Assembly: GCA_964610875.1 (NCBI GenBank)
Contig: CAZSWP010000002.1
Location: forward strand, 142,593 to 159,104
DNA: 16,512 nucleotides
Source: an uncultured archaeon
Lineage (GTDB): Archaea > Asgardarchaeota > Thorarchaeia > Thorarchaeales > Thorarchaeaceae
Reading direction: 5' to 3'
Each line of letters begins with the position of its first letter. Within the stretch, counting starts at the first letter, position 1. The notes beneath the pieces were generated by a model, which had not been told where the DNA came from, searched no databases, and saw only the letters and a program-made list of their open reading frames with translations. Shown here in pieces: positions 691 through 8,212 of this stretch. Position numbers and translations under genes: made by a program.

Positions 691-1233
691 CTATTCTTTG
701 CGTCGGTTCTCGACTAGAACAGTACCGAGCTCCTCAAAGATGTCTACTATTCCTTCACCAGTCTTTGCTGATGACTCCATGTAGGGCATTTCGTGACTAT
801 CTGCAAATGCTTTGCCTTCTGCGGGTTCCACGACACGGTCTGGCAAATCGGTCTTGTTGGCTACTAAGACGAGGGGGATCTTTCTACCAACCGCCTTCTC
901 TAATTCTTCCAACCATTCTTCAAGCACAATGAAGGTACGACGTCGGGTCACATCAAAGACGATTATTCCACCACTGGAACCACGATAGTACATGGGTCGT
1001 AGGATTTGAAATCGGCTTTGGCCAGCCACATCCCATATCTGCAGTTTTACAGTGTTGCGTGAACCATCATCATTCTGAATATCGATGTTCTTGACTGCGA
1101 ATTGACTCCCAATCGTGGTCTTGTAGTCTGTACGGAAAAAGCCATGCGAGAAACGCGTAACAATAGCAGTCTTCCCCACTGCACCTTCGCCTAAAACCAC
1201 GATTTTGAAAAGATAGTCGTATTGGCTACTCAA
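691..1233 (-). CDS. Rab-like small GTPase (Ras superfamily)
   Basis: G1 GEGAVGKT, G2 TTIG, G3 WDVAGQ, G4 NKTD, G5 SAK. Rab-family motifs YDYLFK, KLQIW and YYRG. TTG start preceded by GGAGGA. Confidence 0.95.
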   Translation of the reverse strand: MSSQYDYLFKIVVLGEGAVGKTAIVTRFSHGFFRTDYKTTIGSQFAVKNIDIQNDDGSRNTVKLQIWDVAGQSRFQILRPMYYRGSSGGIIVFDVTRRRTFIVLEEWLEELEKAVGRKIPLVLVANKTDLPDRVVEPAEGKAFADSHEMPYMESSAKTGEGIVDIFEELGTVLVENRRKE

Positions 1234-1240
1234 AGTAATA

Positions 1241-1246
1241 TCCTCC
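1241..1246 (-). promoter_or_regulatory. Shine-Dalgarno site GGAGGA for the Rab-like GTPase
   Basis: + strand tcctcc at 1241-1246, 7 nt from the TTG start at 1233. Confidence 0.65.
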
Positions 1247-1557
1247 AGTGAATATCGTCATGTTCCTCTAGTCAATTTGCATATCGCAACACGGGTTTAT
1301 CCTTTTTCATTCTATGAATCATGAAGTGTTGGATAATGTTCAGAGCGATTAGGTTCTACCGCACTAATAAGGTTTCGTTCGACTTAAGCAGATGACCACT
1401 CCGAGCCTTACCGATATAATGTGAGTAGAAAAATGAAGAACACGATTCGCAGTACAGGCCATTTTGGAATCAGTGAATTCTTGCTCAGTATAAAAAAGGA
1501 AGCAAATTCCTGGAAAACCGCTTCCACGTTCTTCGCTGTACCATATTATGCTTTAGA

Positions 1558-1695
1558 GTGAATTTACTAGGTGTGATATTGATAACTTTCTCATTTGTTT
1601 CTTGTATGGGATTAGGTGTGGTCGGTGTCTACATACTCCTGCTTTTGATAGCTGTAGGAGCTATATGTGTGACTCAGAAAACTGACATTCCATAG
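1558..1695 (+). CDS. Possible small hydrophobic membrane protein (about 38-45 aa) or gene remnant
   Basis: GTG-started frame (V)NLLGVILITFSFVSCMGLGVVGVYILLLLIAVGAICVTQKTDIP*, almost entirely hydrophobic. Alternative TTG start at 1579 after aggtgtga. No recognised homology. Confidence 0.25.
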   Translation: MNLLGVILITFSFVSCMGLGVVGVYILLLLIAVGAICVTQKTDIP

Positions 1696-1748
1696 CACGA
1701 CCCGATATATTGGCAGGCCAGAAATTCAACTTGGATAAAAATTGCAAT

Positions 1749-2540
1749 CTAGTTTGACCTTTCCACCCAATCAACAAATTTGGCGAGTATTGCATTGAAA
1801 GTGTCCGATTCCTCAACCATAGGTGAATGGTCAGCGCCTTTTACCATGGCATATTCAGCGCGGGGTAATGCCAGCTCCAATTGCAAAGCAACCTCAGGGG
1901 TTATGACATCATCATCTTCTCCTACTATTACTAGTGCCGGGGCAGTGATCTCACTCAATCTGTCAGTTATTTCAAACGAATCACAGGCTTTCAAATCGCT
2001 GAGTATTGTTCGCCCTTGGAATTTTGTGACTCCTTCTTTGAAGTCGGCTAGTGAGAAGGTCTTGAAGTCCTCATCTAGCTCGTCAATCTCATACTTTGGC
2101 TCATGGTTTTCAAATGCTTCAATTATCAGACCGCTGATCAGTTTGGAGAGGTCGAGGTCAGAAGAAGTGTCAGCAAGGACTAAAGCGGTCGGCGTGGGAG
2201 CATCATCCATCAAGCAATAACACATTACTACACCACCACCCATTGAATGCCCTGCCAGAATGAATTCATCAAGACCAAGATTTTCAATCAGCGATTTTAG
2301 TTCTAGTGCAAACCTTTTGATACTTGGCTCTTGATCGCAACTCTCGGATCTCCCATGACCTGATAGATCGATAGCAATGACTCTATTCCTCTTTTTGAAT
2401 TTGATTATCTGTAGAGTCCATATAATATGTGATGATCCTGCACCATGAACAAAGACTATTGGAAGTCCTTTGGTTTTATCAACCCTATCATCATAATCTA
2501 CATAGTGGATTTGTTGACCACCGTATTGAAAGAAGGGCAT
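1749..2540 (-). CDS. Alpha/beta fold hydrolase
   Basis: FVHGAG oxyanion loop, DLSGHGRS, nucleophile elbow GHSMGG, acid in GEDD, catalytic His in GADHSPMVE. Confidence 0.93.
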   Translation of the reverse strand: MPFFQYGGQQIHYVDYDDRVDKTKGLPIVFVHGAGSSHIIWTLQIIKFKKRNRVIAIDLSGHGRSESCDQEPSIKRFALELKSLIENLGLDEFILAGHSMGGGVVMCYCLMDDAPTPTALVLADTSSDLDLSKLISGLIIEAFENHEPKYEIDELDEDFKTFSLADFKEGVTKFQGRTILSDLKACDSFEITDRLSEITAPALVIVGEDDDVITPEVALQLELALPRAEYAMVKGADHSPMVEESDTFNAILAKFVDWVERSN

Positions 2541-2656
2541 CTTACTTCAACCTCGTAATGATTGGCTCTCTACAATCGCACATATATCAGTATTCTAAGT
2601 ATCTTTGTAGTAGTTACCTTTTTGTTGCCCCCATATATGATTCGGATGTGAAACAC

Positions 2657-4036
2657 ATGACAAGTGGTCTCTTTGGAACAACAGGAGTTCGAAAAGTCTA
2701 CGGGACTGAATTTGATATAGAGATGGCTATGCGCTTGGGAAAGGCATTTGGTACGTATCTGGGTGATGGAAAGATAATCATCGCAAGAGACGCTCGAACT
2801 ACTGGGGAAATGGTAGTGGATGCATTGACTTCAGGACTGCTCTCAACTGGGATTGATGTTGTAAAAGCAGGAATCATTCCCACTCCAACCCTAGCTTTCC
2901 TGACAAAAAAAATAGGTTTTGACGCCGGTCTGATGGTCACAGCGTCCCATAATCCTCCCGAATATACTGGAGTCAAGTTCTGGAATAAAGACTCAATGGG
3001 ATTCACACAAGACATAGAAAAGAAACTTGAAGAAACCTACTTTGCTAATGAGTTCAAAAATGCTCCATGGGACAAGCTGGGTTCAGTAAGTGAACTAAGC
3101 AATCCTGCTGAAATACACATAGATTCACTTCTTGCACACTGTGATGCGGAATCTATCAAGGAGAAGAAATTCAAAGTTATCATTGATCCGGGTAATGGAG
3201 CAGCATGTGTCCTCACCCCATATTTGGCACAGAAACTTGGTTGTTCAGTCATTACCATCAATGGTCAACTTGATGGTCACTTTCCAGGGAGACCATCTGA
3301 GCCTGAAGAAACTACATTAGGTGACCTAATTAGAATGGTCAAAGAAATTGGTGCAGATCTGGGTGTTGCTCATGATGGAGATGCAGACAGAGTCGTCTTT
3401 GTGACAAAATCTGGTGAAGTTATCCGTGGGGATAGAACAATCGCACTTCTTGCGATACATGCCATGGCTCAATCTGAAAACAAGGTTGTTGTCACCACTG
3501 TGGACAGTTCAAGAGCATTGGATGAGAGCATAGAGAAACATGGAGGTAAAACAGAAAGAACACCAGTTGGAGATATTCAGGTCGCTGTTAAGGTGAAGGA
3601 ACTAGGTGCGATACATGGGGGAGAGGCATGTGGTGTTTTCATCTTTCCTGAGTATCATCTTGCACCAGACCCATTCCTTGCCTTTTGCCGCGTACTGGAA
3701 ATAATGGCAAAAACAGGCAAGTCATTTGATGAATTGATATCCAATATCCCAATATATCCTCTAAAGAAGTCCAAGATCAAAGTTCCAAACGAGTATAAAC
3801 AATCAGTGATGGAAAAACTTGCAGAGGAGCTTCCAAAATCACTCACTGGTGTAAAAGAGGTTCTCACTGTGGACGGTATCGGTCTATTCTTAGAGAACGG
3901 ATGGGTTTTAGTCCGCCCATCAGGAACAGAACCAGTCATTAGAATCACCTGTGAGGGACAATCAGAAAATGAGGTGATTGGCATCCTAGAGAGCACTCAG
4001 ACTATAGTGGAAAGAGTTGTAGAAACGTTGCGATAG
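2657..4036 (+). CDS. glmM: Phosphohexomutase (phosphoglucosamine mutase / phosphomannomutase family)
   Basis: LFGTTGVR N-terminus, phosphoserine loop TASHNP, metal loop DGDADR, GGEACG, RPSGTEP. The true start is ATG 2657; the ORF-track extension to 2429 overlaps the opposite gene. GlmM versus PMM specificity cannot be resolved from motifs. Confidence 0.88.
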   Translation: MTSGLFGTTGVRKVYGTEFDIEMAMRLGKAFGTYLGDGKIIIARDARTTGEMVVDALTSGLLSTGIDVVKAGIIPTPTLAFLTKKIGFDAGLMVTASHNPPEYTGVKFWNKDSMGFTQDIEKKLEETYFANEFKNAPWDKLGSVSELSNPAEIHIDSLLAHCDAESIKEKKFKVIIDPGNGAACVLTPYLAQKLGCSVITINGQLDGHFPGRPSEPEETTLGDLIRMVKEIGADLGVAHDGDADRVVFVTKSGEVIRGDRTIALLAIHAMAQSENKVVVTTVDSSRALDESIEKHGGKTERTPVGDIQVAVKVKELGAIHGGEACGVFIFPEYHLAPDPFLAFCRVLEIMAKTGKSFDELISNIPIYPLKKSKIKVPNEYKQSVMEKLAEELPKSLTGVKEVLTVDGIGLFLENGWVLVRPSGTEPVIRITCEGQSENEVIGILESTQTIVERVVETLR

Positions 4037-4067
4037 GAAAATGTCTACCATTACGATGCAAGCAATG

Positions 4068-4073
4068 TTTATA
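4068..4073 (+). promoter_or_regulatory. Putative archaeal TATA box (TTTATA) for the 4114 gene
   Basis: TTTATA about 40 nt upstream of ATG 4114 in a 77-nt intergenic gap. Confidence 0.4.
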
Positions 4074-4113
4074 GCAGTATTACGAGAAATCCAATCTATA
4101 AGAGGCCTCTCTA

Positions 4114-4536
4114 ATGAATGACAAAGATGATGAACTAGGTATCATGGCTGATTTCAAATGGGCACTGAAAGACCCCACTGAAGAAAAGCTGAGAGAGCTT
4201 GGTGAAGTTGTTAGTATAATCACAACCAAGCTGATAGATGCCTTTGGAAAACTGGAGAGGAGATTAGATGAATTCGAATCCAGTTTAGGTGGTTTGGAAA
4301 CGAAGGTCAGTAGTCTTGATTCTAAGGTTGCAAGAGGCGTTTCACCAGCGCCAGGAGATGCAGATCCATCACCAGCTGCAGCCGCAGCAGGAACCGGTAT
4401 GGCTTCGGCACCAATGGCTTCAGCACCGAAACCAAAACCTGCAGGTGCAGGTGGCGGTATGAGCATGATGGGTGAATTGAAAGCGTTGTTAGCCGCAAGA
4501 AGGGTAAAATCAGAAACACCAAGCGAGTCGGAATAG
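4114..4536 (+). CDS. Coiled-coil / Pro-Ala-rich protein with a C-terminal amphipathic helix; candidate actin-binding or cytoskeleton-regulatory protein
   Basis: Heptad region at about aa 23-75, low-complexity P/A/G linker at aa 76-112, helix GGGMSMMGELKALLAARRVK, short acidic tail ETPSESE. The CDS is well supported; the function is inference. Confidence 0.8.
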   Translation: MNDKDDELGIMADFKWALKDPTEEKLRELGEVVSIITTKLIDAFGKLERRLDEFESSLGGLETKVSSLDSKVARGVSPAPGDADPSPAAAAAGTGMASAPMASAPKPKPAGAGGGMSMMGELKALLAARRVKSETPSESE

Positions 4537-4541
4537 TCTAT

Positions 4542-5210
4542 TCAGATTAGCCGTTGAACACTGTTTTCAGGATAAAAGGGTCCTGCATGTTCAGGATATT
4601 TTATAGTAAAAGCTTCTGCACGTTCACAATTAGCTTGTACACCACGTAGTTTGGTTCTGGCATCATAGAGCCGAAAATAGAACCCTTCTGCTTTCCCCGT
4701 CTGAGAATGATGTGCTTTTAGGGCGTCATTAGCAGTTTTGTAGGTCTTGGATATGTCAACCATTATTTGTGGATAGGAATGTAGAGAATTGACTTCCATA
4801 TGATAAATTCGCTCAACACGATGAGCATTATCATAGATTGTAACATGTGATGCCCATTCAACTGCTTCGTCAACCAAACGAGAACAAGTAACATGATTCC
4901 GATTGTAATCGAGGGGGGAATGCGTGATTACTATGATCGGTCTCGCCTTTAGAATGACCTCAGTGATATCCTTGATGAGTGATTCACCCACCTCAAAATC
5001 ACCCCTCTCGAACCAGTAGACATTGCGTACACCTAGAATACTACATGCTTTTTCAAGCTCGACGCTTCTTCGAGAGCTAGAAGTGAGACTAAGTACATCA
5101 ACAGGAATTCCAAATTCTACATGTTTTCTTATTGTTCCTCCAGCACCCAAGCACTCATCATCAGGATGAGCTCCAATCACAAGTATTGATGATTCTTCGT
5201 TTCGAGGCAT
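4542..5210 (-). CDS. bshB: PIG-L/LmbE family Zn-dependent N-deacetylase, BshB-like
   Basis: ILVIGAHPDDE motif, RxxExxxAxxILG, VDIS...ALKAHHSQ, RG...AEAF. Divergent from bshA. Likely start ATG 5210. Confidence 0.8.
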   Translation of the reverse strand: MPRNEESSILVIGAHPDDECLGAGGTIRKHVEFGIPVDVLSLTSSSRRSVELEKACSILGVRNVYWFERGDFEVGESLIKDITEVILKARPIIVITHSPLDYNRNHVTCSRLVDEAVEWASHVTIYDNAHRVERIYHMEVNSLHSYPQIMVDISKTYKTANDALKAHHSQTGKAEGFYFRLYDARTKLRGVQANCERAEAFTIKYPEHAGPFYPENSVQRLI

Positions 5211-5318
5211 ACAAATCCTTAGACCTCGGTTTCTAATCAAGCTTTGGCGCACTCACGATTGTTCAGACCAGTTGCCTTAAAGGTCAAAAATACACTTAAT
5301 TTTGCAAGGTTGACCAGC

Positions 5319-6479
5319 TTGAGAATCGGAGTAAATCTCTACCCTTCAGTAGGTGGATCTGGACACTTAGCCACAAGACTTGGACAGAAACTTGCATCAA
5401 AAGGTCATATCATTCATTTCATCAGTTACGAAAGACCGTTTTCCTTAATGTGGGAACAGACAAGAGGTGTCTACGTTGACCTCGTAGACAGATTTGACTA
5501 TCCTTTATTCAAAGCAACGGGACCACCATACACAATGGCTCTAGCATCTAAGATAATCAAAGTCATTCATGATTCCAAACTGGATCTCATTCACGCACAC
5601 TACGCAATTCCACATGCAATGTCAGCTTATATGGCAAGAGAAATTACAAAGACACCATATGTCGTTACACTTCATGGTTCAGATGTACATACTTTGGGAT
5701 TGGACCCAGCATATGAACCAATTGTGAGACACACTGTTGAGAAAGCTGATGCAGTCACCGCAGTATCTGAGTTCCTTAAGAGGAAAGCACAGGATGAACT
5801 GGGGATTGAAAGAGAGATTCATGTAATTCCCAATTTCATTGATGTCGAAAAATTCACCGAGCTTAAAGGAGTGCGACTGACCGTAGAAAGTGGATGTGTG
5901 TCATTACGTAGTACTGCAGAGGCAAAAGAGCTTCATCCTAAAGAAAAGATACTCCTCCATGCATCAAACTTCCGTAAGGTCAAGCGTGTAGTAGAACTAG
6001 TTGAGATAATGAGAATTGTTGCTGATCATCATCCAGAAACAAGACTGATCATAGCAGGTGATGGACCTACAAGGATAGAGGTGGAGAGAAAAATCGAAGA
6101 ACTTGACCTCTGTAACAACATCCACCTGTTAGGTATCAAGAGTAATATGCAGGAGATTATGTGCTCTGCAGATATCTTTCTATTGAATTCCACACTGGAA
6201 GGAATGCCACTAGTACTACTAGAAGCAATGTCCTGCAAATTGCCCGTCATAACAACACCAGCTGGAGGAATACCAGAACTAGTGCGTCCCGGAATCGATG
6301 GGTTTGTAACTAAGGGATTTGAACAGGAGGAGTTTGCTCAAGCTGTGATAGATCTTCTTTCGGATGAATCAATGCGAAAGAAATATGGAATTGCTGGTCG
6401 AAAACGAGTGGAAGAATCATTCTCAGCGGATATGATCGTTCAGAAGTATGAGAAGGTATTCGAAGAGGCCCTGAAATAG
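5319..6479 (+). CDS. bshA: N-acetyl-alpha-D-glucosaminyl L-malate synthase BshA (GT4 glycosyltransferase)
   Basis: BshA signatures RIGxxxYPSVGGSG, PPYxxALASKI, HAHYAIPHA, TLHGSD, NFID, HASNFRKVKRV, GDGP, LVLLEAM, GGIPE. Likely TTG start at 5319. Confidence 0.92.
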   Translation: MRIGVNLYPSVGGSGHLATRLGQKLASKGHIIHFISYERPFSLMWEQTRGVYVDLVDRFDYPLFKATGPPYTMALASKIIKVIHDSKLDLIHAHYAIPHAMSAYMAREITKTPYVVTLHGSDVHTLGLDPAYEPIVRHTVEKADAVTAVSEFLKRKAQDELGIEREIHVIPNFIDVEKFTELKGVRLTVESGCVSLRSTAEAKELHPKEKILLHASNFRKVKRVVELVEIMRIVADHHPETRLIIAGDGPTRIEVERKIEELDLCNNIHLLGIKSNMQEIMCSADIFLLNSTLEGMPLVLLEAMSCKLPVITTPAGGIPELVRPGIDGFVTKGFEQEEFAQAVIDLLSDESMRKKYGIAGRKRVEESFSADMIVQKYEKVFEEALK

Positions 6480-6496
6480 AAGGTGAGTGAATTTCA

Positions 6497-8212
6497 TTGA
6501 ATCCAAGTATCTTGGAAGTCTATAATCAATTCATTTGGGAAAATAAGTATTCACAACTTGCACACGAACTCTACAATAGTCCTCCTGTCATGTTCAATGA
6601 CCTAAGAGGAAGAGTTCCAGATGTGATGGACGCTTACAGGAAAACAGGATGGTTTGATGATTCACATACAAAAAAGATGAGGGATATTCTTCGAAGGATC
6701 AACCGTGAGATAGGTTGCTTGACACCAGAAGTAAGCAAAAACATTGAGAAACTGCATAACGGAGCTGTTGAGGCAGCTCACCAGAGTGTTGTGTTAGGTG
6801 GACCATGTTATATCCTTAACAAAGCAGCAACTGCAGAGAGGTTTGCTACTTTAAATTCGACAGAGGAAAATCCACTTGCCCCCTTCTTCTGTGTAGCAGA
6901 TTATGATATTGTACAAAATGAACTCACTCATATGAGAACTCCAAATATGGGATCGGGAGGCAATCTTGTCAGTATACCAATACCACAAGGGTATGAACAT
7001 TCACCAGTGAGTTTTCTTCCCCTACCTGACTATTCATGGTATGAAAGTGCAGAAGAGAGTATTCGTAATGAATATCGCCCGTTGTTCAAAGTACTTGATG
7101 GAACAGCAAGGACGCTGATGGAGGAACGTCTGGAATCCATATTATCAATTATCCGATCAGCATACATAACAACTGGTACTCTTGGTGACTGGGCGATACG
7201 CATTCTTGGGCATCTCTTCAATGTCATAGGACATCTAGGACTACCTATCCTACCAGCCTCGAATTTAGAAGTGAGAGAAATCTGGTGTAAAGGTATGGAG
7301 ATGTTGTTGGCTGAAGAAAACAGAGATGCATTCTTACAAGCTCATAACAAAGCAACTCAGACAATCCTCGATAACGGATTTTCAACTGGGACTGGAGCTC
7401 GAGATGATAGTCATGTGCCATTCTTCTACGAGTGTTCCAAAGATGCATGCAAACGAGCGAGAATAGAACTCAGATACGAAAAGATAGCTAGCAAAGCAGT
7501 ACTCAGAGGAAAATGTCCTAACTGTAATGAAGAGATAGAAATCGAAGTGGATGCACGGTCTCCAGACCTTTCAGAGCATGCCGTGTTTCTCTCTCCAAGA
7601 GTCGATACAAGACAGATGGTAATTGACACATCACTTCCTATCATCACACATGTAGGTGGACCTGGTGAGACTGCGTACTATGCACAGGTGATTCCTGTTG
7701 CTAGAGCTATGAAACATCCTTTCCCACTTTTTGTTAGATATCCAAGAGTCTTTTTCAATACACCATGGAATGAAGACCTAGCCAACACTCTGAAAGAACA
7801 AGACCTACTTGTACTACACAGGTCTGAGATGTTTAAACTCATAGGTAAGGTTTCAAAATTCAGAAGGAAGTCTCGTTTTGATAAGATGAATGACGCAATG
7901 GCAGATTTAGAACAGTTCATTCACACTTCTAGAATTCAACTCAATGAGAGACTTTCTGATATATCCAAATCAATTGAGGCTTCAGAAGGAAAAGTTGACG
8001 ATGACACTCTAGAACTCAAGTTCGATCTAGAAACATACCTTTCATGGGTATATGGACAATATGCTGAAGAAAAACACGCACAGGAATCATCTTGGGCATG
8101 GATTGAGTGGGCATTGAATGCAGGACTTGGAGACCTCTTTGGCCCCTATGAGAGAGCATATGTTCCAGAGATGAAGAATGGTGGCACCATGTTTGTGAAT
8201 TTTGTACTTTGA
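6497..8212 (+). CDS. bshC: Bacillithiol biosynthesis protein BshC (putative cysteine ligase), divergent
   Basis: HQxxxLGGPxYxLNK, SPRVxxR...LP...GGPGETAYYAQ and PR motifs, C-terminal coiled coil, about 570 aa, 17 nt downstream of bshA, AGGTGA SD before the TTG start. Confidence 0.85.
   Translation: MNPSILEVYNQFIWENKYSQLAHELYNSPPVMFNDLRGRVPDVMDAYRKTGWFDDSHTKKMRDILRRINREIGCLTPEVSKNIEKLHNGAVEAAHQSVVLGGPCYILNKAATAERFATLNSTEENPLAPFFCVADYDIVQNELTHMRTPNMGSGGNLVSIPIPQGYEHSPVSFLPLPDYSWYESAEESIRNEYRPLFKVLDGTARTLMEERLESILSIIRSAYITTGTLGDWAIRILGHLFNVIGHLGLPILPASNLEVREIWCKGMEMLLAEENRDAFLQAHNKATQTILDNGFSTGTGARDDSHVPFFYECSKDACKRARIELRYEKIASKAVLRGKCPNCNEEIEIEVDARSPDLSEHAVFLSPRVDTRQMVIDTSLPIITHVGGPGETAYYAQVIPVARAMKHPFPLFVRYPRVFFNTPWNEDLANTLKEQDLLVLHRSEMFKLIGKVSKFRRKSRFDKMNDAMADLEQFIHTSRIQLNERLSDISKSIEASEGKVDDDTLELKFDLETYLSWVYGQYAEEKHAQESSWAWIEWALNAGLGDLFGPYERAYVPEMKNGGTMFVNFVL

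What the first reader, a model, noticed from the sequence alone, without database searches (positions are those of the whole stretch)
4114..4536. Minimal WASH/WAVE/Ena-VASP-like protein: coiled coil, Pro-rich linker, actin-binding-type helix
Seen: coiled coil, P/A/G linker, then GGGMSMMGELKALLAARRVK (4450-4509) and a short acidic tail. From memory, human VASP F-actin-binding motif [18 protein letters not shown] and WASH1 central helix GGDLMSDLFNKLVMRRK share the pattern GG-x-(L/M)M-x-(E/D)-phi-xxx-L-xx-RR. Residues 28-75 also align without gaps to the recalled BRK1/HSPC300 helix (9/48 identities, ending KVARG versus RVTKG), although generic heptads could give this. Established: Asgard archaea encode actin, profilin and gelsolins. 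Inference: an oligomerising actin-filament binder or nucleation-promoting-factor precursor that annotation would call hypothetical. It has no acidic-Trp motif, canonical LKKV or true polyproline run.
Basis: partly seen in the sequence, partly recalled or inferred. Interest (0 to 1): 0.78.

Follow-up and report, generated by a model that had tools for sequence, protein, structure and literature searches.

The report
Asgard coiled-coil tether with frozen tail helix
This small Thorarchaeota gene is a real member of an undescribed, single-copy protein family found across much of the Asgard archaea: a coiled-coil stalk, a floppy spacer and an almost unchanging end helix that looks like a docking peg. 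Actin is the best single guess for what it docks onto, but that is unproven, and the likeness to animal VASP holds only in some lineages.

Summary
ORF 4114-4536 (+) encodes a 140-aa protein with a helix at residues 3-19, a long heptad helix at 23-73, a disordered Pro/Ala/Gly linker at 74-115, a basic helix at 116-134 and a short acidic tail.

It belongs to an undescribed family present in 282 of 400 Asgard genomes: Thor, Loki, Borr, a likely Odin genome and part of the Heimdall group. It is absent from Heimdallarchaeaceae (0/31). There is one strong tail match in each of six genomes scanned. No Pfam, NCBIfam or PDB relative exists beyond coiled-coil noise.

About 15 tail positions are at least 95% invariant within the Thor and non-Thor (mostly Loki-type) groups. 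Only ELKx(L/A)(F/L) plus basic residues is shared family-wide. Non-Thor members carry true polyproline runs (116/125); Thor members have none (0/169).

The published VASP FAB motif ranks this tail first of 1.14 million proteome windows. That likeness falls to marginal in Loki and to chance level in the likely Odin, Borr and Heimdall-group members, so it is not ancestral. WH2, EVH1, VASP tetramerisation domain, BRK1 and MIM1 tests all fail.

Best reading: an oligomeric tether presenting a docking helix to a highly conserved partner, with actin as the leading named candidate (about 0.3). The scan has met this family before on other DNA.

The parts
4068..4073 (+). TATA box (TTTATA) with a BRE-like caatg flank, 41 nt upstream of the ATG; the gene's own promoter
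   Evidence: The motif caat[c/g]TTTATAgc lies 41-46 nt upstream of the start codon in most of the 13 Thor loci inspected. Some database entries start at an upstream ATG and translate this motif as 'MFIA...'.
4102..4105 (+). GAGG ribosome-binding-type motif, 8 nt before the ATG
   Evidence: Read directly from the sequence. Most Thor loci have GAGG or GGGG at the same place.
4114..4536 (+). Whole coding sequence, 140 aa plus stop (P0001)
   Evidence: A single copy in this genome. 327 homologues at E<=0.01.
4141..4233 (+). Conserved N-terminal block (residues 10-40: IMADFKWALKDPTEEKLRELGEVVSIITTKL): helix 3-19, a DP kink, then the start of the long helix
   Evidence: Invariant I10, F14, A17, L18, D20, P21, G30, V32, T37 and K39 in 27 Thor members. 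The Loki-type counterpart is MAEEFxxxMxxxxExPLKERVEGLADVIEKIM.
4180..4332 (+). Heptad coiled coil, residues 23-73: the presumed oligomerisation stalk
   Evidence: AlphaFold2 helix 23-73 with pLDDT above 90. 3-4 hydrophobic spacing from L26 to V72 (direct reading). All PDB and Pfam matches run through this segment, and the PDB ones are mostly trimeric coiled coils.
4333..4458 (+). Disordered Pro/Ala/Gly linker, residues 74-115, ending in the Thor-specific GGG
   Evidence: pLDDT 48-60 and no secondary structure. Variable in length and sequence. No PPPP in 0/169 Thor members against 116/125 non-Thor members.
4459..4515 (+). Terminal basic helix, residues 116-134 (MSMMGELKALLAARRVKSE): the frozen docking helix
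   Evidence: M119, G120, E121, L122, K123, L125, L126, A128, R129 and R130 are at least 98% invariant in 169 Thor members. The family PSSM scores it 56.4 bits against 8.5 for the next window in the genome. A PSSM built from non-Thor rows only still ranks it first, 22.9 against 11.9.
4510..4533 (+). Short Ser/Glu-rich acidic tail (SETPSESE)
   Evidence: Direct reading. Variable across members. Some Loki-type members end in DDDDDD and f11 members in GW(A/D)EED.
2429..4036 (+). Upstream neighbour on the same strand (473 aa in L012; 535 aa by the longest ORF call in the window). Synteny is conserved in Thor and its sister family; it is not part of the feature
   Evidence: Cluster 1 directly precedes the gene in all 12 Thor loci and in L030. 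An earlier first-reader note (e1-5544142) calls it a GlmM-like phosphohexomutase; I ran no family search on it. The 77-nt gap holds the gene's own promoter. Neighbours differ in other lineages.

Best explanation
P0001 is the Thorarchaeota version of an undescribed, single-copy, cytosolic protein family that occurs in about half of the Asgard family-level groups sampled. Shown: an N-terminal helix plus a roughly 50-residue heptad helix, a disordered spacer of 40 to 110 residues, and an 18-residue basic helix whose sequence is almost frozen. Inferred mechanism: the heptad segment oligomerises, so each particle displays two to four flexible arms, each ending in the same docking helix. The helix binds a specific groove on a very highly conserved partner, and the multivalent particle therefore clusters or cross-links that partner. 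The single most likely named partner is actin (filament side or barbed-end cleft), which would make the protein a bundler or filament-end helper working like the FAB-plus-oligomerisation half of Ena/VASP. In Loki-type members the APPPPPG runs could additionally recruit profilin-actin. The generic part (oligomeric tether with a specific protein-docking helix) I hold at about 0.75. The actin assignment, which is what the confidence figure refers to, I hold at about 0.3. If correct, this is functional analogy, not descent from or to the eukaryotic proteins.
For: Architecture.

Frozen tail: about 15 consecutive positions are at least 95% invariant in 169 Thor and in 125 non-Thor representatives, while the rest of the protein drifts to about 45% identity. 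Invariant polar E121 and K123, with only weak amphipathicity (muH 0.11-0.42), point to a specific protein contact and not generic membrane insertion.

One helix per genome: there is exactly one strong tail match in this genome and in five complete or near-complete genomes of other lineages.

Partner must be highly conserved: Asgard actins are 70-91% identical across the phylum.

FAB likeness: the published VASP FAB 20-mer ranks this tail first of 1.14 million windows (42 against 35 for the next). The 14-mer core ranks second. In Loki and f17 tails the core is still reached by only 1-13 background windows.

Distribution: all named relatives are Asgard. At least one sampled genome of every tail-positive family sampled except f31 (0/1) has actin; f2, f11, f17-f21 and f23 were not sampled.

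Polyproline of the profilin-ligand type occurs in 93% of non-Thor members.

The field currently knows only profilins and gelsolins as Asgard actin regulators, so the role is vacant (PMC13716822; PMC12050087).
Against: No member matches any actin-binding domain model; WH2, EVH1 and VASP_tetra are absent at E<=10 in all 31 members scanned. The PDB profile search gives only coiled coils.

FAB likeness is lineage-specific. It is at chance level (10^3 to 2x10^4 background windows) in the likely Odin, Borr, f28, f31 and Heimdall-bin6 members, whose tails share only ELKx(L/A)F plus basic residues. Much of the Thor score comes from a Thor-only Gly run.

The Lokiactin Co-IP in Lokiarchaeum ossiferum names one profilin, five gelsolins and an ARF GTPase as enriched, and no protein of this kind (PMC13716822). 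The full table was not available, so I cannot tell whether the orthologue was even detected.

Polyproline and profilin data run the wrong way. Loki profilins did not bind a VASP polyproline peptide, while a Thor profilin did weakly (PMC8410842); yet Thor members are the ones that lost the polyproline. The linker's variability (A/P/G, PPPPPG, S/T/P, 40-110 residues) fits a mere spacer.

No cytoskeletal gene is a conserved neighbour.

Heimdallarchaeaceae (0/31) and three further families (0/12, 0/12, 0/7) lack it; sampled genomes of three of these four have actin, and f13 was not sampled.
Confidence: 0.3

Rival explanations
1. Same tethered-docking mechanism, but the helix binds a conserved partner other than actin. 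Candidates include the Vps4 MIT domain or another ESCRT part, a small GTPase, a tubulin/FtsZ-type filament or a chaperone. The protein would be an adaptor or clustering hub for that machinery.
For: Everything that supports a specific docking helix is neutral about the partner. No actin-binding domain model matches. The protein is not named among Lokiactin Co-IP interactors. FAB likeness is at chance in half the lineages. A small Ras/Roc-type GTPase sits next to the gene in one Loki-type locus (L015).
Against: No named alternative has positive evidence. The MIM1 consensus (D/E)xxLxxRLxxL(K/R), recalled from the ESCRT literature, is not met by the Thor or Loki tails on direct reading. The tail PSSM finds no similar helix on any other protein of this genome, ESCRT-III tails included. 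Gene neighbours are housekeeping genes and change between lineages. Each single alternative partner is less likely than actin; the figure given is for all of them together.
Confidence: 0.38
2. The basic terminal helix is a membrane-targeting sequence. The coiled-coil oligomer would be anchored to anionic archaeal lipids by several weak amphipathic helices, as with MinD or FtsA tails, and the conserved N-terminal block would be the working end.
For: The tail has net charge +2 to +4 and a hydrophobic stripe. The HeliQuest-type discriminant is 0.94-1.60, in the 'possible to likely lipid-binding' range. The N-terminal block is as conserved as the tail. Multivalency would compensate for weak single-helix affinity.
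Against: The hydrophobic moment is low (0.11-0.42) and mean hydrophobicity modest (0.20-0.35). Membrane anchors usually conserve amphipathicity, not sequence, whereas here Gly, Glu and Lys are invariant over hundreds of sequences. An Arg sits in the middle of the hydrophobic arc.
Confidence: 0.12
3. The tail helix docks onto the conserved N-terminal block of the same family, in cis as autoinhibition or in trans as head-to-tail networks or condensates. The protein would be a self-assembling scaffold like PopZ.
For: The two most conserved parts are the N-terminal block and the tail, and both switch together between the Thor type and the Loki type. A long disordered linker between an oligomerisation domain and a short binding helix is the PopZ-type layout (from knowledge of that family).
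Against: There is no direct evidence. The AlphaFold2 monomer output reports no contact data, and pTM is only 0.33. Joint change between two lineages is a single event and proves nothing.
Confidence: 0.08
4. One reading: the protein is a true evolutionary relative or precursor of eukaryotic WASH/WAVE/Ena-VASP modules.
For: Rank-1 FAB likeness in Thor. Polyproline followed by a helix in Loki-type members. The family is present in one Heimdall-group family (f11, including CP070695).
Against: Every membership test fails. The module order is reversed. The member from the Heimdall group, which is nearest to eukaryotes, is among the least FAB-like. The family is absent from Heimdallarchaeaceae. A 14- to 20-residue amphipathic basic helix is easily reached by convergence.
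Confidence: 0.04

Closest known systems
Ena/VASP EVH2 module (human VASP: GAB 223-239, FAB 259-278, tetramerising coiled coil 343-380; PMC10340426)
   Same: An oligomerising coiled coil combined with a short basic helix that in VASP binds F-actin. Together these bundle filaments in VASP. Loki-type members also have (G/A)PPPPP runs like the VASP proline-rich region. The Thor tail aligns without gaps to the FAB core: 7 of 14 identical and about 10 of 14 similar by hand count, and rank 1-2 in this proteome.
   Different: No EVH1 domain and no GAB/WH2-like motif. The coiled coil is N-terminal, of ordinary heptad type and unrelated to VASP_tetra. The order of parts is reversed. Thor members have no polyproline. 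FAB likeness vanishes in half the family. No detectable homology.
WH2 domains and the C (connector) helix of WASP/WAVE/WASH VCA regions (Pfam PF02205 for WH2)
   Same: A short amphipathic helix followed by basic residues and then often an acidic stretch, placed after a proline-rich region. f11 members even end in KKGW(A/D)EED.
   Different: No LKKV-type motif is conserved: in Thor the helix is followed by AARR, then a variable residue, then K. The WH2 model hits none of 31 members at E<=10. This protein has no Trp in its acidic tail. No Arp2/3 link was examined.
Tethered docking peptides on self-assembling prokaryotic scaffolds: the FtsZ C-terminal peptide on its disordered linker, PopZ, and CdvA's ESCRT-III-binding tail (from knowledge of those families)
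   Same: An oligomerising or polymerising core, a variable disordered linker rich in Pro/Ala, and a short highly conserved terminal helix that recruits a partner. This is the closest match in logic.
   Different: No sequence relationship. The partner is unknown here. The family is restricted to Asgard archaea in all searches run.
Baculovirus P10 (Pfam PF05531, NPV_P10)
   Same: A roughly 10-kDa protein with an N-terminal coiled coil, a proline-rich middle and a basic C-terminus that associates with the host cytoskeleton (from memory). Eight of 31 members give weak hits, best E 0.0074.
   Different: The hits lie in the heptads only and are far below the family threshold; this is an analogy of layout, not membership.

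Membership tests
Ena/VASP | N-terminal EVH1 (WH1) domain | tested here: not met
   No such Pfam hit for P0001 at E<=10, nor among the 25 most-hit families across 31 members. The protein is only 140 aa.
Ena/VASP | Proline-rich region with profilin-binding (G/A)PPPPP runs | tested here: not met
   P0001 and all 169 Thor-type members lack PPPP. 116 of 125 non-Thor members have it. Binding itself was not tested.
Ena/VASP | G-actin-binding WH2-like motif with KLRK (GAB 223-239, PMC10340426) | tested here: not met
   A GAB 17-mer scan of the proteome puts P0001 at rank 155, with its best window in the Ala-rich linker. No WH2 Pfam hit.
Ena/VASP | F-actin-binding motif (FAB 259-278) | tested here: inconclusive
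   Rank 1 of 1.14 million windows for the 20-mer and rank 2 for the 14-mer core. The likeness is marginal in Loki and at chance in the likely Odin, Borr, f11, f28 and f31 members. No curated model of FAB exists, and no binding data.
Ena/VASP | C-terminal right-handed tetramerisation coiled coil (VASP_tetra) | tested here: not met
   No hit. The coiled coil here is N-terminal with a canonical 3-4 heptad spacing (direct reading).
WH2 domain (PF02205) | Amphipathic helix, short linker, then an LKKV-type motif | tested here: not met
   No hit in any of 31 members at E<=10. The positions after the helix read AARR, a variable residue (R 51%, K 19%, A 15%, Q 11%), then K in Thor, and A/S-K-R-x in Loki; there is no conserved Leu-basic-basic-Val.
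WASP/WAVE/WASH VCA | WH2 (V), connector helix (C) and an acidic tail with a conserved Trp (A) | tested here: not met
   No V motif (above). The acidic tail SETPSESE has no Trp. Only f11 members have GW(A/D)EED. The C-helix likeness rests on memory and was not tested.
BRK1/HSPC300 | Recognisable homology of the roughly 75-aa helix | tested here: not met
   P0001 hits only DUF7310 (E 0.022) and COG6_N (E 0.23) in Pfam at E<=10. No WAVE-complex chain is among the best 60 PDB profile matches. Nine of 48 identities is the level that heptad repeats give. The recalled BRK1 sequence itself was not available to align.
ESCRT-III MIM1 tail (Vps4 MIT ligand) | Consensus (D/E)xxLxxRLxxL(K/R) at the C-terminus (recalled from the literature) | tested here: not met
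   Direct reading: from E121 the residues at +3, +6, +7 and +10 are A, A, A and V, not L, R, L and L. The Loki tails fail in the same way. Binding was not tested.
Undescribed Asgard family (this report) | N-terminal acidic helix block, heptad coiled coil, disordered Pro-rich linker, terminal ...ELKx(L/A)(F/L)xx(K/R)... helix, 125-200 aa, single copy | tested here: met

The most novel reading that the evidence does not exclude
The family is the missing third class of Asgard actin regulators after profilins and gelsolins. It would be a multivalent coiled-coil particle whose frozen tail helices bind Lokiactin-type filaments or barbed ends. In Loki-type lineages its native polyproline arms would feed profilin-actin to the filament. 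That would make it a convergent archaeal counterpart of Ena/VASP, driving the bundling or elongation behind the actin-based protrusions and crawling recently seen in cultured Asgard archaea.
Probability: 0.25. Interest if true: 0.88.

Novelty: new variant of a known kind. Interest (0 to 1): 0.55.

Why it matters
Cultured Asgard archaea build dynamic, actin-filled protrusions and crawl, yet the only actin regulators known in them are profilins and gelsolins (PMC13716822). No nucleator, elongator or dedicated bundler has been described. This family is small, single-copy and has its own conserved promoter. It is present in most Thor, Loki, Borr and likely Odin genomes, and it has one of the most rigidly conserved short helices I have seen on a disordered tether. 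Something important and highly conserved binds that helix.

If the partner is actin, the family gives a concrete handle on how a pre-eukaryotic actin cytoskeleton was organised, and an example of convergent invention of the VASP design. If it is something else, the family is still a cheap route (a peptide pull-down) to an unknown Asgard-specific interaction hub.

This report also reconciles earlier conflicting notes in the scan. The VASP likeness is better than chance in Thor, marginal in Loki and absent in deeper members, so it cannot be used as evidence of ancestry.

Tried and rejected
- **Complex prediction.** I submitted an intact Thor actin alignment (A4) with residues 96-140 of the family alignment (A3). 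The tool did not fold the pair, because it treats the actin chain as eukaryote-like and will not pair it with a microbial chain. The job was counted and gives no evidence either way. I did not attempt the pairing by any other tool.
- **This genome's own actin** could not be used because its reading frame is interrupted.
- **Whole-protein profile searches of the large protein collection** were saturated by Thor and Loki members. They could not show the family's outer limit. No non-Asgard name appeared in the rows listed.
Weak whole-profile hits in small genomes G009, G037 and G285 lack the tail and are coiled-coil noise, and G285 and G009 have actin.
- **The search for related loci with alignment A5** failed for lack of a conserved stretch.
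- **ESM Atlas feature search:** no usable hit.
- **NCBIfam:** nothing for P0001.
- **Genome search with the FAB 20-mer:** the first-look filter produced no candidates, so the result is uninformative. I replaced it with the direct scoring.
- **Supplementary Co-IP table of PMC13716822:** not held. An exact-sequence look-up of the Lokiarchaeum orthologue found no accession.
- **Modular-peptide idea** (the same helix on other scaffolds, prompted by note e1-5454799): rejected for this helix. There is one strong match per genome in six genomes.
- **Gene-neighbourhood inference:** neighbours differ by lineage. Thor has the upstream cluster-1 gene; Loki f21 has an Elf1-type zinc ribbon; f22 has Pelota/eRF1-like, radical SAM and two unknowns. 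None is cytoskeletal.
- **Fold search of the model** was not run, because a single long helix plus disorder would only return generic coiled coils.
Full report
**1. Observation.** The quoted helix GGGMSMMGELKALLAARRVK is residues 113-132 and maps exactly to 4450-4509.

AlphaFold2 with a 31-sequence family alignment gives helix 3-19, a long helix 23-73 at pLDDT above 90, no structure at 74-115 (pLDDT about 50-60) and a terminal helix 116-134 at pLDDT about 85. Hydrophobic residues from L26 to V72 follow an uninterrupted 3-4-3-4 spacing, which is a canonical heptad coiled coil of about 6.5 heptads (direct reading).

The overlapping antisense ORF 4080-4466 is a shadow of this gene. The gene has its own promoter. 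A TTTATA box at 4068-4073 with a caatg flank, and a GAGG at 4102-4105, recur at the same distances in most of the 13 Thor loci inspected. Some database entries with longer N-termini ('MFIA...') are read-throughs of that promoter.

**2. The family.** A word-indexed search found 327 homologues of 125-170 aa, and every named one is Thorarchaeota or Promethearchaeota. An exhaustive HMMER pass over 1.84 billion representatives found only about eleven true clusters at 50% identity, plus giant repetitive coiled-coil proteins that match through heptads. No fused forms appeared.

In 27 Thor members the tail MGELKxLLxAR(R)xK and an N-terminal block (I10, F14, A17, L18, D20, P21, G30, V32, T37, K39) are invariant, while the linker varies.

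A profile scan of 400 genomes of the phylum then showed same-sized matches in many other families. Fetching twenty of them revealed clear orthologues. They have MAEEFxxxMxxxxExPLKERVEGLADVIEKIM, a coiled coil, true polyproline runs (APPPPPGxPPPPPG, or GPPGGPPGG) and the tail NPVSLRG(A/S)IM(G/D)ELKxLFxKR(K/R).

Over all representatives collected, 0 of 169 Thor-type members have a PPPP run (6.6% Pro), against 116 of 125 non-Thor members (15.2% Pro). In each group about 15 consecutive tail positions are at least 95% invariant.

A PSSM built only from non-Thor tails still ranks the Thor tail first among 1.8 million six-frame windows of this genome (22.9 against 11.9 bits). The all-family PSSM gives 56.4 bits against 8.5 for the runner-up. 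So the tails are homologous, and the helix occurs on no other protein here.

**3. Distribution.** A tail-only profile (A6) removes coiled-coil noise. It finds exactly one strong match (35-50 bits) in each of five complete or near-complete genomes of other lineages, with everything else at E>=0.1.

Across 400 genomes it is positive in 282, and in 74 of the 90 high-quality ones.

| Group | Positive / scanned |
|---|---|
| f1 (Thor) | 78/85 |
| f2 | 1/1 |
| f11 | 17/22 |
| f14 | 18/19 |
| f15 | 5/5 |
| f16 | 5/6 |
| f17-f20 | all |
| f21 (Loki; includes single-contig 6.0-Mb and 4.3-Mb genomes) | 13/14 |
| f22 | 120/135 |
| f23 | 3/4 |
| f28 | 3/3 |
| f29 | 4/4 |
| f30 | 5/5 |
| f31 | 1/1 |
| f3-f10 (f8 0/31, f10 0/12) | 0/56 |
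| f12 | 0/2 |
| f13 | 0/12 |
| f24-f27 | 0/14 |

Naming by identity to GTDB records:
- f8 is Heimdallarchaeaceae. It includes the closed Ca. Heimdallarchaeum aukensis and endolithica chromosomes.
- G067 of f11 is CP070695.1, 'Ca. Heimdallarchaeota archaeon bin6' (identical sequence and length).
- f30 contains Ca. Borrarchaeum yapensis.
- f29 contains a closed 1,418,269-bp genome. From memory that is the size of Ca. Odinarchaeum yellowstonii, so I call it 'likely Odin'.

The f29, f31 and f11 members keep the layout, with linkers up to about 110 residues. Their tails are ...NVRQALNTELKQLFTKMR...GLRMALQQELKDAFKKLK and ...SLKAQMNMELKEAFARIKKGWAEEDQ. Only ELKx(L/A)(F/L) and the flanking basic residues are shared family-wide.

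In a 61-genome sample, actin was found in every sampled family except f31 (0/1). So absence of this gene does not track absence of actin.

**4. Tests against known families.** hmmscan of all 31 aligned members against Pfam at E<=10 yields only coiled-coil families: Baculo_PEP_C, DUF7310, YwqH-like, BLOC1_2, NPV_P10, FlaC_arch, LPP and others. WH2, EVH1/WH1 and VASP_tetra never appear among the families listed.

A family profile against all PDB sequences matches only through the heptads. The matches are mostly trimeric coiled coils: adhesin stalks, reovirus sigma-1, HA2, P22 gp26 and coronavirus HR1. That is a weak hint about oligomer state and nothing more. NCBIfam and the ESM Atlas give nothing.

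The FAB and GAB sequences were taken from a paper (PMC10340426), not from memory. In a gapless BLOSUM62 scan of this organism's 4,249 ORFs of at least 100 aa (1.14 million windows), the FAB 20-mer ranks this tail first (42, next 35; background mean -18.7, sd 9.1). The 14-mer core without the Gly run ranks it second (33 against 34). The GAB/WH2-like 17-mer finds nothing in the protein (rank 155).

Scoring the same motif against tails of other lineages, on the same background, gives the following numbers of background windows at least as good.

| Tail | FAB 20-mer | 14-mer core |
|---|---|---|
| Thor (this protein) | 0 | 1 |
| Loki-type | 22-26 | 4-13 |
| f17 | 35,561 | 1 |
| f15/f16 | 659-1,493 | 76-112 |
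| f29 (likely Odin), Borr, f28, f31, Heimdall-bin6 | 1,493-23,351 | 1,047-10,057 |

So the VASP likeness is better than chance in Thor, marginal in Loki and absent elsewhere. It is a derived feature and not an ancestral one. That reconciles earlier scan notes, which called it both 'far better than chance' and 'no better than chance'. It also argues against descent from, or to, the eukaryotic motif.

**5. What the helix is for.** The tail is frozen over hundreds of sequences, including polar Gly120, Glu121 and Lys123, while the rest of the protein drifts. Its hydrophobic moment is only 0.11-0.42 with mean hydrophobicity 0.20-0.35, and an Arg lies inside the hydrophobic arc. This pattern is typical of a peptide that fits a specific groove on a very conserved protein, and atypical of a generic membrane anchor.

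The linker varies freely in length and composition (A/P/G, PPPPPG, S/T/P), as expected of a spacer. The heptad stalk should make the particle multivalent.

I therefore read the protein as an oligomeric tether that clusters or cross-links a conserved partner (about 0.75). Among named partners, actin is the most likely (about 0.3), for four reasons:
- Asgard actins are 70-91% identical across the phylum.
- The family is Asgard-restricted in all searches.
- Thor and Loki tails resemble a known F-actin-binding helix.
- The literature knows no bundler or elongator in these organisms.

Four points count against it:
- No domain-level match exists.
- Gene neighbours give no cytoskeletal link. They are the cluster-1 gene in Thor; an Elf1-type zinc ribbon, Pelota/eRF1-like, radical SAM and unknowns in Loki lineages.
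- A Lokiactin Co-IP names a profilin, five gelsolins and an ARF GTPase, but no such protein. I could not see the full table.
- Profilin data run opposite to the polyproline distribution. Loki profilins did not bind a VASP peptide and a Thor profilin did weakly (PMC8410842), although native Asgard ligands were never tested.

**6. Limits.** The decisive in-silico test, tail with actin, was submitted once and not folded by the tool. I did not pursue it by other means. Oligomer state, partner and localisation are all untested.

**7. Verdict.** This is a real, conserved, undescribed Asgard protein family. Its homology claims (WASH/WAVE/VASP/BRK1) are not supported. The scan has found this family before in other genomes, and those notes supplied two of the papers used here.

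Noticed in passing
Own genome G000:C13, locus L001 about 1555-1584 (- strand): This genome's only actin gene (423 bits to Pfam Actin) carries a clean in-frame 30-nt insertion (GCGGCACCGATTTCCGTTGCTGCGTGGTAA, encoding AAPISVAAW plus a stop) between ...LKTFQK and MWVSRKEFEEAGPEVIHRCI. The ORF therefore ends 20 residues early, and the normal C-terminus follows in frame starting at an ATG. Intact orthologues (L061, L056) are 91% identical. This could be an assembly or strain artefact, a pseudogene or something stranger.
   Followed up: partly
I only confirmed that the first two ORFs are conserved neighbours in Thor loci (clusters 2 and 3). I ran no family search on any of them.
   Followed up: no
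Loci L007, L010, L014; proteins such as P0033 and P0110: Several database entries for this family begin 15-25 residues too early at an ATG inside the promoter. The conserved caATGTTTATAGC is translated as 'MFIA...', giving spurious N-terminal extensions.
   Followed up: yes
L019 (G124:C202), 85-471 and 599-973, - strand: One f17 genome has two tandem paralogues of the family (129 and 125 aa) with near-identical tails. Most genomes have a single copy.
   Followed up: no
L166 (G067 = CP070695.1) and L167 (G075): The Heimdall-group (f11) members are about 194 aa with a Ser/Thr/Pro linker of about 110 residues. They end in a basic-Trp-acidic motif (ARIKKGWAEEDQ or ARIKKGWDEDG), superficially like the acidic-Trp end of VCA regions.
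   Followed up: no
L024 2196-2813 (+), and the same position in L017, L022 and L023: In Loki f21 genomes the gene directly upstream is an Elf1-type zinc ribbon (PF05129, E 1.5e-16) carrying a C-terminal extension of about 130 residues rich in Glu/Asp/Lys. The Thor genome has only the 75-residue ribbon part, located elsewhere.
   Followed up: partly
L020 2257-2874 (+) and 3689-5461 (+), and equivalents in f22 loci: Two conserved flanking genes of the Loki f22 orthologues have no Pfam or NCBIfam match and no counterpart in this Thor genome. One is a helical protein of about 206 aa upstream on the same strand. The other is a Lys-rich protein of about 590 aa downstream.
   Followed up: partly
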